Assembly (NCBI GenBank): GCA_038209745.1
Contig: JBBQXJ010000050.1
Coordinates: 1-35,329, forward strand
Length of the DNA stretch: 35,329 bases
Direction: 5' to 3'
Source of the DNA: Verrucomicrobiota bacterium
GTDB taxonomy: Bacteria; Verrucomicrobiota; Verrucomicrobiia; Limisphaerales; CANJSG01
The first letter of the stretch is position 1; the number at the start of each line of letters is the position of its first letter. This document shows positions 27,269 through 30,520 of the stretch, in pieces. A program made the translations under genes and the position numbers. The notes below the pieces were generated by a model, which was not told where the DNA came from, did not search any database, and saw nothing but the letters and a program-made list of their open reading frames with translations.

Positions 27269-28036
27269 GTGACGTCCTCCTCCGCCAAGTCTCCGGGGTC
27301 CGATCAGTCCCGTCCGCCGGACAAGTCGCCCCGCGTCTTCGCCACCACCCAATGGACCGCCGTCTTGCGGGCCCGGGGTTCCGATTCGCAGGCGCATGAA
27401 GCCCTCTCCCGGCTCTGCCAGACCTATTGGTATCCGCTGTATGCCTTCGTCCGCCGGGAAGGCCACGATCCGGCGGACGCGCAGGATCTGACCCAGGAAT
27501 TCTTCGCCCGGCTGCTGGAAAGCCAGTGGTTGGCCGAGGTCGATCCCGGGCTGGGTCGGTTTCGGTCATTCCTGCTGGCCTCGCTGAAACATTTCCTGGC
27601 GAACGAGCGCGCCAAGGCCCGCACCTTGAAACGCGGCGGCGGCGTCCCCCATGTCCCTTTCCAGCTCGATACCGGAGAGGAACGCTTCCGCCACGAACCC
27701 GCCGACAACCGGTCCCCTGACAAGGCCTACGACCGCCAATGGGCCCTCATGCTCCTGGCGCGTGCCCTCGATCAACTCCGCGAGGAACTCGTCGCCTCCG
27801 GCAAGGAGACGCTCTTTGCGACCCTCAAAGATGCTCTTGGCGGCGACCGCCACGCGGTGCGCTACGTCGAACTGGGCGAGCAATTGGGCCTCTCCGAAAC
27901 CGCCGTCAAGGTGACCGTCCATCGCCTGCGCAAGCGCTACCGCGAGCTTCTGCGCGCCGCCATCGCCGACACGCTGGTCGAAGGAGCGGACGTCGAGGAA
28001 GAGCTGCGCCACCTCCAAGCAGCGCTGAGTGCATGA
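27269..28036 (+). CDS. ECF sigma factor, kinase-associated type
   Basis: FATTQW..LCQTYWYPLYAFVRR, DAQDLTQEFF, GRFRSFL, AVKVTVHRLRKRY. Confidence 0.9.
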   Translation: MTSSSAKSPGSDQSRPPDKSPRVFATTQWTAVLRARGSDSQAHEALSRLCQTYWYPLYAFVRREGHDPADAQDLTQEFFARLLESQWLAEVDPGLGRFRSFLLASLKHFLANERAKARTLKRGGGVPHVPFQLDTGEERFRHEPADNRSPDKAYDRQWALMLLARALDQLREELVASGKETLFATLKDALGGDRHAVRYVELGEQLGLSETAVKVTVHRLRKRYRELLRAAIADTLVEGADVEEELRHLQAALSA

Positions 28037-28198: not shown

Positions 28199-30520
28199 AT
28201 GCGCACACCACGAATCTGCCCCACCTGCGGAAAGCCCGTTCCCCCCGACGCCCCGCACGACGTCTGTCCCGCCTGCCTGCTCCAAGGCGGCTTCGCCACC
28301 GGCAGCCTCGCCTCCGAAGCGCCCGGCTCGCGGCCGCGCTTCACCGCTCCGACCCTGGACGAATTGGCCCCGCTCTTTCCCCAGCTCGAACTGCTGGAAT
28401 TCATCGGCCAAGGCGGCATGGGCGCCGTCTACAAGGCTCGCCAGAAGGAATTGGACCGCCTCGTCGCGCTGAAAATTCTCCCGCCCGGCATCGGCGATGA
28501 TCCTGCCTTCGCCGAACGTTTCAGCCGCGAAGCCCGCGCCCTGGCCAAGCTGAACCATCCCGGCATCGTCACCCTCTACGAGTTCGGCAAAACCCGTAGC
28601 CGCCGAGGTGACGAGGCGGAACTTTCGAGCCCCTCGAGGCCGGGCATCTCTGCCCGGCCCGCTTCCGACGAATCCGAGAACATCGACGAAAGCACGGCCA
28701 AGCCTGCCTCCGATCCGCCTCCTTACCTCGGCGGCTTCGGTCCGCTCTACTACTTCCTCATGGAGTTCGTGGACGGGGTGAACCTTCGCCAACTCCTCGG
28801 CACCGACCGCGTCTCGGCCCGCGAAGCCTTGGCCATCGTCCCGCAGATCTGCGACGCGCTCCAGTTCGCCCACGACCAGGGCATCGTCCACCGCGACATC
28901 AAGCCGGAGAACATCCTCCTCGACCGGAGGGGCCGGGTGAAGGTGGCGGACTTCGGTTTGGCCAAGCTGGTGGCTCCCGGTGGGGCCGAGTTGCCGCTCG
29001 GCCCTGATTCAAGGGCTGCACAGCAGCACAGCTCCACCGGGATCATGGGCACCCCGCACTACATGGCGCCCGAGCAGTCCAGCCGCCCCGCCGAAGTCGA
29101 TCACCGCGCCGACATCTACGCCCTCGGCGTCGTCTTCTACCAGATGCTCACCGGCGAACTGCCGGAGAAGCAGCTCCAGCCCCCGTCCAAGAAAGTCCAG
29201 ATCGACGTCCGTCTCGACGAGATCGTCCTCCGCGCCCTGGAGAAGAATCCGGACCAACGCTATCAACAGGTCAGCCAGATGAAGACCGGCGTGGACGCGA
29301 TCAGCGAATCGCCCCTTCCCGGTAGCCGCGGACATGAGTCCGCGCCATCCGTCGAATCGGAAGATCAGCGCCGGCTCACGGCGGCGGCTACGACGACCGG
29401 TTACGCTCGTCTTGCGCTGGGATTCTTCCTCGCCGGCACCTTGGGGACGCTTCTCTTGATGACCGTTTCCTACCGGCACGACATGGCGCTCATCTTCGGC
29501 GGCGTCGCCTTGGTGCTGGCCTTCGTCTTCGGCTGTCTGGGCTGGCGACAACGAATGGGCAAGTTCGTGGTCATCACCCTGTCGGCGGTTGTCTTGATCG
29601 TGGTGCTTGGGGCCTCGGCGGCTTTCCTCTTTTGGGGAATGTCCAAGGATCGCGCCGAAGCCAGCGCCCGCAACGCGGAAGCCAGAGCTCGGTTGGATCA
29701 GGTCAAAACGATGGTGGTCGCCTCCAACAAGTTCGCCTCGTCCCAACCCGCTCTCCTTGCCTCCCGTCCGGCCGACGCGCCCAAGCTCCTCTTCCTCGCC
29801 TCGCTGGCGGCCTACCTCGCCGATACGAACCGTGTCTTCCATCCCGATGGATCGCCGGTCGTGAGCGCCGAGGAGCGACTCTGGGTCGCGGAGACCTCTC
29901 CCAAGTATGACGTCACCGGTGGTTCCGTCTTGGAGTCAGACGAGCTTCGGCTTTGGTTTTCCGTTCCGGGCACGGCTGACTTCTCAAACTACGAGCTGGA
30001 TTTTCTGGATGGCTCCGGCAACCCCGTTCCCGCTGGACCAGGCGGTTCGACCCACCTCCAGTTCGGCGAGACTGAAGTCGGGAATGAGACGATCGGATGG
30101 TTCACTATGACGGTCGCCGGCCACGGAGCGCCGCCTCGTGCGACCCTCCGCTTGACCTACACGTCCGGTTCCGAGGGAGCGCCCCAGGAAATTGTTCCGA
30201 AACCCAATGTGAATCTTCTGCAAAGGCTCGAGGACGAAAGCCTGTTGAGCGCCGTCGGCGAGAACGCGGACGGCGATGCCTTCGTCTCGATCACGACCGA
30301 TCCTCGGCAGGGGAAGCGGCATCTGACAGAAGTCTTCGCCATCGCCAAAGACGATCGGGAGATCGGCTCCAACGGAAGCGCCAGTCTGGGCGACCGCAAA
30401 TCCGAGACTCGGACACAGCTCTTCGATTTCCGGATCCACTTGGCCGACGTCGCGAAGTTCCGCATCGCCTTCCGACCGATCCACACCGTGGAGTGGAAGG
30501 ACGTGCTGCTGCCGAAGTGA
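28199..30520 (+). CDS. Membrane Hanks-type Ser/Thr kinase with N-terminal zinc ribbon
   Basis: [44 protein letters not shown]; about 3 TM helices; C-terminal domain. Confidence 0.95.
28596..28738. repeat. GTAG REP doublet 1 in kinase
   Basis: 25-bp arms 28596-28620 and 28714-28738, 22/25 complementary. Confidence 0.88.
28977..29040. repeat. GTGG REP doublet 2 in kinase activation loop
   Basis: 29-bp arms, 21/29 complementary; left arm 25/30 identical to 34285-34314. Confidence 0.8.
29322..29391. repeat. GTAG REP doublet 3 in kinase juxtamembrane linker
   Basis: 24-bp arms 29322-29345 and 29368-29391, 19/24 complementary, both starting GTAGCCGC. Confidence 0.82.

What the first reader, a model, noticed from the sequence alone, without database searches (positions are those of the whole stretch)
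28594..28740. 48-aa REPIN-derived insert within the kinase N-lobe
Between LYEFGKT and [13 protein letters not shown], normally a short beta4-beta5 turn, sit 48 extra residues (28595-28738, 144 bp). They are bounded by gtagccgccgaggtgacgaggcgga and its 22/25 inverted copy. The frame and all catalytic motifs are kept.
Basis: partly seen in the sequence, partly recalled or inferred. Interest (0 to 1): 0.8.

Follow-up and report, generated by a model that had tools for sequence, protein, structure and literature searches.

The report
Mobile DNA palindrome translated inside kinase loop
A small palindromic mobile repeat (a REP doublet, with a hairpin of a second repeat family nested in it) sits in frame in a surface loop of a bacterial Ser/Thr kinase and is read as a floppy 48-residue stretch; repeats inside genes are already known in this phylum, but this loop has been hit repeatedly in related kinases.

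Summary
Window 28595-28738 (144 nt, 48 codons) lies between strands beta4 and beta5 of a Hanks-type Ser/Thr kinase (28199-30520). It is bounded by 27-nt inverted arms (24/27 complementary). All catalytic motifs and the reading frame are kept.

The arm is a GTAG-tagged REP of a genome-wide family (24 copies at 3 mismatches or fewer, 0 in the control). This family usually occurs as roughly 72-nt inverted doublets (REPINs).

A same-genus relative carries a canonical 72-nt doublet at the same codon. Here the spacer holds 72 extra bases, including a hairpin of a second REP family. The nearest sister kinases and the two closest paralogues in this genome have a 5-residue turn.

The insert is polar (42 of 48 residues) and has low model confidence. 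It is most likely a tolerated, near-neutral passenger.

Intragenic GTAG REP dimers are already published, most abundantly for the verrucomicrobium Opitutus terrae (Di Nocera 2013). This scan has reported the same kind of insert before on other DNA, so this is a new member of a known kind.

The added point is recurrence. 79 of 116 close homologues have enlarged loops, several REP types occur at this loop, and an AU test rejects a single origin of this REP type (p 0.0007).

No cognate transposase and no empty-site allele were found.

The parts
28199..30520 (+). Host gene: Hanks-type Ser/Thr protein kinase, 773 aa, with an N-terminal Cys-rich segment, a kinase domain, predicted membrane-spanning stretches and a C-terminal module
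   Evidence: ORF. Pfam PF00069 152 bits. NCBIfam best match is PknB-type, below its cut-off. PknB chains match at E 1.6e-50.
28595..28738 (+). In-frame insert, 144 nt = 48 codons (protein residues 133-180), between beta4 and beta5
   Evidence: Homologues align in two pieces that skip query residues about 133-180. PknB alignment. Model pLDDT is 43-53 across it.
28594..28620 (+). Left arm: family A REP (GTAG tag at 28596-28599, then a CCGCC...GGCGG hairpin)
   Evidence: pair I1. Position-weight score 41.3, the highest in the genome. Family counts.
28714..28740 (-). Right arm: family A REP in inverted orientation, 3 mismatches to the left arm's 25-mer. Two of these (28724, 28737) read as the consensus letters in contigs of other runs.
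   Evidence: Variants 28724 T>C and 28737 T>A. The P0001 allele reads PPPHLGGY.
28621..28713 (+). Spacer of 93 nt, against about 21 nt in the orthologous doublet of G002 and about 20-30 nt in most family copies
28637..28659 (+). Nested family B REP hairpin (9-bp stem, 4-nt loop) with a degenerate tag. No second B arm was detected.
   Evidence: 37 genome copies at 4 mismatches or fewer against 1 in the control. A profile of 11 B doublets matches only this hairpin, E 1.2e-5. It appears as a stem in the folds.
28975..29042 (+). Activation-loop inverted repeat. Its left arm is a GTGG-tagged hairpin with one other copy in the genome. It adds 11 residues relative to PknB.
   Evidence: pair I2. (C5:49196, 3 mismatches of 31, 0 in the control)..
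29322..29391 (+). Second, diverged REP doublet in the same gene (GTAG...CTAC ends, 24-nt arms 79% complementary, 22-nt spacer), read in frame in the linker after the kinase domain
   Evidence: pairs I3, I4, D4 and D6. It has no close copies elsewhere in the genome.
27269..28036 (+). Upstream ECF-type sigma factor gene (context only)
   Evidence: Pfam Sigma70_r2 27.6 bits.

Best explanation
A non-autonomous GTAG-tagged REP doublet (REPIN type, family A of this genome) entered the kinase gene at the DNA that encodes the beta4-beta5 turn. Its length was a multiple of three and its reading frame had no stop codon, so the gene stayed open.

In a sub-lineage the doublet's spacer later gained about 72 more bases. 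These include a hairpin of a second REP family (B), giving today's 144 nt.

The element is transcribed and translated with the gene as a polar, unstructured 48-residue loop. This loop projects from the N-lobe and leaves the catalytic core intact. It persists because it is tolerated, not because it is needed. Its arms are starting to decay.

Shown here:
- the arms belong to a dispersed repeat family;
- doublets are the family's usual form;
- a relative carries the 72-nt form at the same codon;
- the insert is absent from the sister clade and from the two closest paralogues in this genome;
- the frame and catalytic motifs are kept;
- model confidence across the insert is low;
- the insert is present in independent assemblies.

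Inferred:
- mobilisation by a Y1/HUH (RAYT-type) transposase acting on single-stranded DNA;
- the order of events (A first, then B);
- near-neutrality.
For: Family and form:
- The arm has 24 copies at 3 mismatches or fewer and 29 at 4 or fewer, with 0 in the control. About 48-50 arms score 20 or more on the position-weight matrix, against 1 in the control.
- 15 inverted pairs were found. 14 have an outer length of 63-78 nt and the kinase pair has 143 nt.

Comparative evidence:
- G002 (same genus) has a 72-nt doublet at the same codon. Its left arm is 25/25 identical, and 8 other near-full-length copies occur in that genome.
- P0001 (98% identity over 355 aa; cluster seen on 4 contigs) carries the same 48 aa. 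P0002 (80%) carries a diverged form.
- The clade of own, P0001, P0002, G002 and P0003 has SH-aLRT 99. Its sister is 7 kinases with short loops.
- The own genome gives 12 kinase-domain tblastn hits. Of the 10 whose upstream region could be read, only this one shows an enlarged loop.

The insert itself:
- Family B hairpin: 37 copies against 1 in the control.
- 42 of 48 insert residues are polar or small. GC3 is 0.73 in the insert against 0.85 in the rest of the domain. Codon log-odds per codon are -0.06 against 0.41.
- AlphaFold2 gives pLDDT 43-53 over the insert, between confident strands beta4 (model 80-85) and beta5 (model 138-143).

Signs that the frame is under selection:
- Contigs of 4 runs span the insert. 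Three of them carry a 1-nt deletion at 28634 paired with a 1-nt insertion at 28636/28637, which restores the frame within the insert.

Same family in other genes:
- Family A is read in frame in six other genes: Mfd, RecJ, UvrA, a DinG-like helicase, HrpA and a U32 peptidase.

Literature:
- Di Nocera et al. 2013 (PMC3733652; passages; supplement rows) describe intragenic GTAG REP dimers that encode 20-30 aa. Opitutus terrae has the most, many lie in DNA repair genes, and one lies in a Ser/Thr kinase.
Against: No cognate transposase is established. Four matches to the Y1 transposase family exist.
- The only one near a family A arm is C23:1042-2124, with a single arm about 80 nt downstream. It scores below the NCBIfam RAYT cut-off (61.6 against 80).
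- Its orthologue in G006 has no such arm. No orthologue was found in G002, which does have family A but is only 79% complete.
- The Y1 gene on C137 is flanked by hairpins of its own small family, which has 6 copies.

Only about 29 of the 72 extra spacer bases are explained by the B hairpin. No second B arm is detectable.

Neutrality is not tested. The insert has been kept in frame across lineages that differ by 20% in the kinase domain, which would also fit a use.

The structure model is mediocre overall (mean pLDDT 64.8, pTM 0.59).

Translation of the insert was not shown by RNA or protein data.
Confidence: 0.85

Rival explanations
1. Exapted insert. The REP origin stands, but the loop now has a use. 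It might serve as a Ser/Thr-rich autophosphorylation or docking segment beside helix C, as a modifier of N-lobe dimerisation, or at RNA level as a -86 kcal/mol hairpin that slows translation or sets mRNA stability.
For: - The insert is kept in frame in relatives at 96% and 80% identity, and a compensated frameshift occurs inside it.
- 10 of the 48 residues are Ser or Thr.
- The fold is very stable.
- Enlarged loops are the majority among close homologues, 79 of 116.
Against: - Spacer sequences differ completely between homologues.
- The arms are decaying (3 mismatches).
- Different REP types replace one another at the site.
- The sister clade and the two closest paralogues in this genome work with a 5-residue turn.
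- The frame must be kept in any case if the kinase itself is needed.
- No functional data exist.
Confidence: 0.15
2. The loop was not acquired by transposition into this gene. Instead it was copied from another kinase gene that already carried a REP doublet, by recombination or gene conversion between paralogous or foreign kinase genes.
For: - The kinase tree and the loop type disagree. Family-A-type loops need 7 changes on the best tree, and an AU test rejects holding them as one clade (p 0.0007).
- The N-terminal 355 aa are 98% identical to P0001, while the C-terminal modules are unrelated. Recombination within this gene family therefore happens.
Against: - Insertion points differ between lineages by 0, 2 or 5 codons after the EFG motif.
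- Each genome's insert matches that genome's own REP family. G010's type has 35 near-full-length copies in G010, and G002's has 8.
- Within the own clade the pattern fits simple descent.
Confidence: 0.1
3. An ordinary lineage-specific loop that grew by small indels. On this reading the inverted symmetry and the likeness to the repeats are coincidental.
For: The beta4-beta5 connection is variable in this family, from 5 to 67 aa.
Against: - A 25-mer identical to another genome locus (C30:5344) and within 1 mismatch of 9 further loci, with 0 in the control.
- 24/27 complementary arms, with 0 of 200 shuffles folding as well.
- A canonical doublet at the same codon in G002.
Confidence: 0.02
4. An assembly artefact: a repeat copy wrongly joined into the kinase contig of a metagenome bin.
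For: The genome is a 140-contig bin, and repeats are prone to misassembly.
Against: - Contigs from 4 runs cross both junctions. One is identical (X1). Three carry strain differences, at depth 15-26.
- P0001 comes from 4 contigs.
- The frame is exact.
Confidence: 0.01

Closest known systems
Intragenic GTAG-tagged REPs and REP dimers (Di Nocera, De Gregorio and Rocco 2013, BMC Genomics 14:522, PMC3733652), especially those of Opitutus terrae (Verrucomicrobia)
   Same: Shared features are a 5' GTAG tag followed by a short stem-loop, units paired in opposite orientation with 20-100-bp spacers, and in-frame copies that encode 20-30 aa per dimer. Many copies lie in DNA repair genes; here UvrA, Mfd, RecJ, a DinG-like helicase and HrpA carry family A. 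Some ORFs are hit more than once. Their supplement lists a Ser/Thr kinase of O. terrae with a dimer at residues 625-640.
   Different: Here the insert lies inside the catalytic domain, in the N-lobe beta4-beta5 turn. It is a 48-aa composite with a second-family hairpin in the spacer. The same loop carries REP-type inserts of several kinds in related kinases. I saw passages and supplement rows of the paper, not its figures, so whether its REP families match family A or B was not checked.
REPINs and their RAYT transposases (Bertels and Rainey 2011, PMC3116915; Nunvar 2010, Ton-Hoang 2012, Messing 2012 and Corneloup 2021 seen as search listings only)
   Same: Two REPs in inverted orientation with a less conserved spacer, predicted to form a long hairpin in ssDNA or RNA. 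The typical size is near 71 nt (their GI doublets) and 63-78 nt here.
   Different: In Pseudomonas fluorescens SBW25 only 14 of 1,067 occurrences of the most abundant 16-mers overlap genes (passage). Here 10 of 36 family A loci and 14 of 25 family B loci were called intragenic by my proxy. No RAYT flanked by these REPs was found.
Rickettsia palindromic elements (RPEs; Ogata et al. 2000, recalled; described in passages of PMC3733652 and PMC10969869)
   Same: Palindromic repeats inserted in frame in many unrelated genes. They are read as extra peptide segments that are thought to be compatible with the fold.
   Different: RPEs come from a different phylum and different sequence families. According to the passage, the intragenic R. 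conorii repeats RPE-4 and RPE-6 are CGTC-tagged. RPE-1 is about 150 bp and encodes a conserved peptide, whereas here only the arms are conserved.
Bacterial MITEs (terminal inverted repeats with target-site duplications)
   Same: Small, non-coding and bounded by inverted repeats. They can create in-frame fusions (passage).
   Different: No direct duplication flanks the element (AAAA before and TCCG after the 27-nt arms). Each arm is itself a tagged hairpin, not the end of a degenerate IS.

Membership tests
GTAG-tagged REP (Di Nocera 2013) | Terminal GTAG (or a degenerate GTRG/GYAG) tetranucleotide at one end of the unit | tested here: met
   GTAG lies at 28596-28599. The right arm reads GAAG on its own strand in the window and GTAG in contigs of X2, X6 and X8 (28737 T>A). 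The tag is conserved in 20 of the 29 copies at 4 mismatches or fewer.
GTAG-tagged REP (Di Nocera 2013) | Short stem-loop after the tag (stems 5-13 bp, loops 2-20 nt according to the passage) | tested here: met
   Read directly from the sequence: CCGCC, 10 nt, GGCGG, which is a 5-bp stem. For family B: GCCGGGCA, 4 nt, TGCCCGGC. The single family A arm was not folded on its own.
GTAG-tagged REP (Di Nocera 2013) | Dispersed multi-copy family in the genome | tested here: met
   24 and 29 copies against 0; 48 against 1.
REPIN (Bertels and Rainey 2011) | Two REPs in inverted orientation that, with the spacer, form a hairpin | tested here: met
   pair I1. Folds (z -7.2 and -6.6).
REPIN (Bertels and Rainey 2011) | Doublets at a characteristic spacing are the family's main form | tested here: inconclusive
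   15 pairs and 42 unpaired arms were found among 72 arms at position-weight score 14 or more. Several 'singles' have diverged partners visible by eye. The kinase copy (143 nt) is an outlier to the 63-78-nt mode.
REPIN (Bertels and Rainey 2011) | A cognate single-copy RAYT gene flanked by the same REPs | tested here: inconclusive
   One family A arm lies 80 nt downstream of a RAYT-like gene on C23. The orthologue in G006 has none. The other Y1 genes have no A or B arms nearby. The genome is 92% complete.
REPIN (Bertels and Rainey 2011) | Evidence of mobility (insertion or excision polymorphism) | tested here: inconclusive
   Between species: present as 72 nt in G002, as 144 nt here, and absent in the sister clade. 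Within the population no contig lacking the insert was seen, but contigs cannot show rare variants.
MITE | Target-site duplication flanking terminal inverted repeats | tested here: not met
   No direct repeat is present at the two junctions.
Rickettsia palindromic elements | Sequence membership in an RPE family | not tested
   No RPE sequence was compared. The likeness lies in behaviour only.
Hanks-type Ser/Thr protein kinase (host gene) | Pkinase domain with Gly-rich loop, VAIK Lys, HRD, DFG and APE | tested here: met
   PF00069 at 152 bits against a cut-off of 31.7. Motif positions. Alignment to PknB chains.

The most novel reading that the evidence does not exclude
In one kinase family of Verrucomicrobiota, the beta4-beta5 turn (and, less well documented, the activation loop) is a recurrent landing and turnover site for REP elements. 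REPs of several families have entered the same few codons independently. They nest into one another and replace one another, so repeat traffic, not point mutation, generates the diversity of a regulatory surface next to helix C. A REP doublet also lies 59 nt from the point where near-identical kinase domains switch to unrelated C-terminal modules. This hints that REPs also seed module exchange.
Probability: 0.3. Interest if true: 0.6.

Novelty: new member of a known kind. Interest (0 to 1): 0.35.

Why it matters
The finding adds a well-documented case in which selfish palindromic DNA is carried inside the catalytic domain of a signalling enzyme without breaking it. A two-step history is visible between species: a 72-nt doublet, then a 144-nt composite.

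Practically, such inserts split domain matches and inflate loop lengths in annotations of Verrucomicrobiota. The translated arms recur in many unrelated proteins and can create false similarity.

If the recurrence at this loop reflects more than tolerance, it would give a testable example of mobile repeats diversifying a regulatory surface of bacterial kinases.

Tried and rejected
1. Empty-site or excised alleles. Contigs of 4 runs (X1, X2, X6, X8) were laid on 28300-29100. None joins 28594 to 28739. The only joint inside the element (28622 to 28713, with 19 other letters between and 24 letters on the shorter side, in X8) is what another family A copy with its own spacer would give. Contigs cannot show rare variants, so this says nothing about excision.

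2. RNA evidence. Expression is untested.

3. Cognate RAYT.
- The RAYT-like gene on C23 has one family A arm downstream. Its orthologue in G006 has none.
- tblastn found no paralogue in the genome.
- The Y1 gene on C137 has its own 6-copy hairpin family.
- The C12 gene showed no REP flanks.
- No assignment was made.

4. Second family B arm. A profile of 11 B doublets finds only the one hairpin.

5. Classing homologues' loops by typed peptide motifs. Single-linkage clustering of loops by shared 4-mers then lumped all long loops into one class and was not used.

6. The earlier-findings index has no look-alike of this DNA, and the one note found for this genome is unrelated.

It was run later. No fold search was made, because the kinase fold is not in question.
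Full report
**What is there**

The window holds a 773-aa open reading frame at 28199-30520 on the + strand. It follows an ECF-type sigma factor gene at 27269-28036 (Pfam Sigma70_r2). The protein is a Hanks-type Ser/Thr kinase. Pfam Pkinase scores 152 bits, and the match is split into two stretches.

The Gly-rich loop (residue 70), VALK (89), HRDIKPEN (231), DFG (251) and APE (290) are all present.

Between LYEFGKT and [13 protein letters not shown] lie 48 codons, 28595-28738. The repeat finder reports inverted arms at 28594-28620 and 28714-28740: 27 nt, 89% complementary, 93 nt apart.

The stretch folds into one long hairpin:
- RNA: -86 kcal/mol, z -7.16, with 0 of 200 shuffles as good.
- DNA: -49.6 kcal/mol, z -6.63.

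Against solved PknB chains the query aligns in two blocks. These leave 46 query residues opposite 2 residues of the beta4-beta5 turn.

**The arms are a genomic repeat**

The window is contig C50 of a 4.58-Mb, 140-contig genome with 63% G+C.

The 25-mer arm occurs 24 times at 3 mismatches or fewer and 29 times at 4 or fewer. The reversed, uncomplemented genome used as control gives none. An iterated position-weight matrix finds 48 arms at score 20 or more, against 1 in the control.

Read in context, most copies are inverted doublets of the form GTAG-hairpin ... hairpin-CTAC. Of 72 arms at score 14 or more, 15 inverted pairs were called. 14 of them have an outer length of 63-78 nt. The kinase pair is the outlier at 143 nt.

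Each arm is a GTAG tetranucleotide followed by a 5-bp stem with a 10-nt loop, read directly from the sequence. This is the architecture of GTAG-tagged REPs, and the doublet is a REPIN in the sense of Bertels and Rainey (passages).

**Why it is twice the usual size**

The best homologue in the same-genus genome G002 carries a 72-nt doublet (24 aa) at the same codon. Its left arm is 25/25 identical to the window's, and its spacer is 21 nt. G002 holds 8 further near-full-length copies of that doublet.

The window's spacer is 93 nt, which is 72 nt longer. Inside it, 28637-28659 is a 9-bp-stem hairpin of a second family (B). Family B has 37 copies at 4 mismatches or fewer, against 1 in the control, and also occurs mostly as GTAG-tagged inverted doublets of roughly 65-120 nt.

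A profile built from 11 B doublets matches only this one hairpin in the insert (E 1.2e-5). About 43 of the extra bases therefore remain unexplained.

The simplest history is a family A doublet first, then a gain in its spacer that included a B unit. The reverse order, a loss in G002, is not excluded.

**Age and population**

P0001 is a protein seen on 4 contigs. It is 98% identical over the first 355 residues and has the same 48 residues, with a right arm closer to the family consensus. P0002 (80% identity) has a diverged version of the composite.

Contigs from four public sediment runs cross the whole insert. One is identical. Three differ at 11-14 positions. Their differences include:
- 28724 T>C and 28737 T>A, which restore the consensus arm;
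- a 1-nt deletion at 28634 paired with a 1-nt insertion at 28636/28637, which shifts the frame for about one codon and restores it.

This last pattern is a sign that an open frame through the insert is under selection. That is expected if the kinase is needed.

**Is the loop normally short?**

In the own genome tblastn gave 12 kinase-domain hits, including this gene. For two of them no readable upstream region was obtained. Among the other ten, none but this gene shows an enlarged loop, and the two closest paralogues (C16, C31) have 5 residues.

Three wider samples were examined:

| Sample | With the loop motif | 5-residue loop (6 where noted) | Enlarged loops |
|---|---|---|---|
| Best kinases in 19 loci: own + 18 relatives | 19 | 9 | 10 |
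| Species-representative genomes, 80 loci | 60 | 45 (plus 7 with 6) | 8 |
| 120 closest database proteins | 116 | 37 | 79 (9-67 residues) |

So the short turn is the ground state. In the sub-family nearest to this kinase, however, enlarged loops are the majority.

**What those other long loops are**

The evidence comes from the nine enlarged loops for which DNA was available.

GTAG-tagged inverted repeats:
- G010 (another family of the order) has a 75-nt doublet of a different REP type in the same loop. That type has 35 near-full-length copies elsewhere in G010.
- L131 has the same type (28 aa, fold z -5.1).
- L092 has a 57-aa compound of two nested GTAG doublets (z -5.6).

No strong hairpin:
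- Three shorter loops (12-20 aa) scored z 0.4-0.6.

Not tested further:
- L069 (27 aa) and L073 (22 aa) fold only into short local stems. No repeat-family test was run on them.

The remaining long loops are known only as protein. I did not test them at DNA level.

The junctions fall 0, 2 or 5 codons after the EFG motif in different lineages. The hits are therefore to a small window, not to one nucleotide.

**Tree test**

A tree was built from 130 kinase domains, with the loop and activation-loop columns removed (237 columns, quick search, many weak branches).
- It places own, P0001, P0002, the G002 protein and P0003 in one clade (SH-aLRT 99). P0003 carries yet another loop type.
- That clade is sister to 7 kinases with short loops (support 94).
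- Loops similar to the window's arms (10 rows, defined by identity to arm peptides sliced from the window) need 7 changes on the best tree and at least 3 if only starred branches count.
- The short state needs 16 changes, and at least 4 on starred branches.
- Forcing the 10 rows into one clade costs 197.6 log-likelihood units (p-AU 0.0007).

Caveat: I had seen the free tree before running this test, although the group was defined from the loops alone.

The same REP type has thus reached this loop more than once, or loops have moved between kinase genes by recombination.

**Consequences for the protein**

42 of the 48 residues are Ser, Pro, Arg, Glu, Ala, Gly, Asp, Lys, Asn or Thr, and 6 are hydrophobic. 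The insert's GC3 (0.73) and codon score (-0.06 per codon) fall below the rest of the domain (0.85 and 0.41).

An AlphaFold2 model was built from 54 aligned sequences (mean pLDDT 64.8, pTM 0.59). It gives pLDDT 82-97 for the N-lobe up to beta4, 43-53 across the insert, and 79-90 for beta5 onward. The activation loop and part of the C-lobe are poor.

The insert is best read as a flexible excursion from the N-lobe.

**Wider context in this genome**

Family A is read in frame in six other genes:
- Mfd (aa 397-422)
- RecJ (684-706)
- UvrA (371-395)
- a DinG/XPD-like helicase (844-867)
- HrpA (966-996)
- a U32 peptidase (601-626)

I used a conservative proxy for 'intragenic with the frame kept': the same best-scoring coding frame on both flanks, with no stop codon through the element. 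It calls:
- 10 of 36 family A loci;
- 14 of 25 family B loci;
- 165 of 400 random 72-nt windows.

By this proxy family B shows no depletion from genes.

**The transposase**

Four matches to the Y1 transposase family exist. None can be assigned to family A or B.
- The gene at C23:1042-2124 resembles RAYTs. Pfam Y1_Tnp scores 47.5 bits. NCBIfam REP_Tyr_transpos scores 61.6, below its cut-off of 80. It has one family A arm about 80 nt after its stop codon.
- Its 79%-identical orthologue in G006 has no such arm.
- No orthologue was found in G002 with this query.
- The C137 gene is an IS200-type transposase flanked by its own 6-copy hairpin family.

Mobilisation by a RAYT is therefore inferred from the element's architecture and from the literature, not shown here.

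**Comparison with what is known**

Di Nocera, De Gregorio and Rocco (2013, PMC3733652; passages, supplement rows) report the following:
- GTAG REPs occur in Verrucomicrobia.
[quoted passage not shown] - Some ORFs are hit twice.
- Many hosts are DNA synthesis and repair genes.
- Their table lists a REP dimer in an O. terrae Ser/Thr kinase at residues 625-640.

In-frame Rickettsia palindromic elements are the classical parallel (passages; the original paper is recalled only).

Earlier notes of this scan describe the same kind of insert on other DNA. These include a REPIN in a kinase N-lobe, and loops of dnaE and hsdM 'hit again and again'. I did not check those notes.

None turned up a report of this particular loop as a recurrent site, but three searches cannot show absence.

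**Verdict**

It belongs to a described phenomenon, so it is a new member of a known kind.

Two points go somewhat beyond the published description and remain to be tested at DNA level on more genes:
- the composite, nested structure of the insert;
- the repeated, independent occupation of the same kinase loop.

Noticed in passing
window 28975-29042: The activation loop holds an inverted repeat. Its left arm is a GTGG-tagged hairpin with one other copy in the genome (C5:49196, 3 mismatches of 31, none in the control). Close relatives (P0002, P0003, G002) carry a different palindrome-like segment at the same place. The activation loop may therefore be a second REP-occupied loop.
   Followed up: partly
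window 29322-29391 and about 29263: A second, diverged REP doublet is read in frame in the linker after the kinase domain. P0001 is 98% identical up to residue 355 (about 29263) and then has an unrelated C-terminal module with no match in this genome. The switch lies 59 nt upstream of the doublet. This could mean repeat-associated module exchange.
   Followed up: partly
G000 contigs C13:7361-7436, C19:41300-41366, C80:14172-14245, C10:13457-13526, C16:13710-13800, C39:34440-34515: Family A REP units are read in frame inside Mfd, RecJ, UvrA, a DinG-like helicase, HrpA and a U32 peptidase. This matches the published bias of intragenic REPs toward repair genes.
   Followed up: partly
G000, family B loci (e.g. 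C9:8651-8714, C23:33056-35076, C95:3082-3175, C27:7639-7704): Family B doublets were called intragenic at 14 of 25 loci, no less often than random 72-nt windows (165 of 400) by the same proxy. From the translated flanks (my reading, not checked by Pfam), hosts appear to include an aminotransferase, an ABC ATPase and an SNF2-type helicase with three to four copies.
   Followed up: partly
window 28634-28637: Strain variants in three runs carry a 1-nt deletion and a 1-nt insertion 2-3 nt apart inside the insert. This compensated frameshift keeps the ORF open.
   Followed up: no
G000 C23:600-2230 (L172) and G006 C553 (L173): The RAYT-like gene has no obvious start codon in its open frame. In both genomes it is preceded by a conserved motif of about 19 nt. 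In G000 that motif is also repeated about 480 nt upstream, inside what looks like an RHS/YD-repeat gene. It may be a separate element with its own ends.
   Followed up: no
G000 C137:760-2070: An IS200-type Y1 transposase gene is flanked by five copies of its own TAG-tagged hairpin. That family has only 6 copies in the genome.
   Followed up: partly
G000 C16:13735-13805 and about 13 other loci: A further palindromic family, centred on a perfect inverted repeat of about 27 nt, is present at about 14 loci. It abuts a family A arm inside HrpA, and a look-alike peptide appears in the activation loops of related kinases.
   Followed up: no
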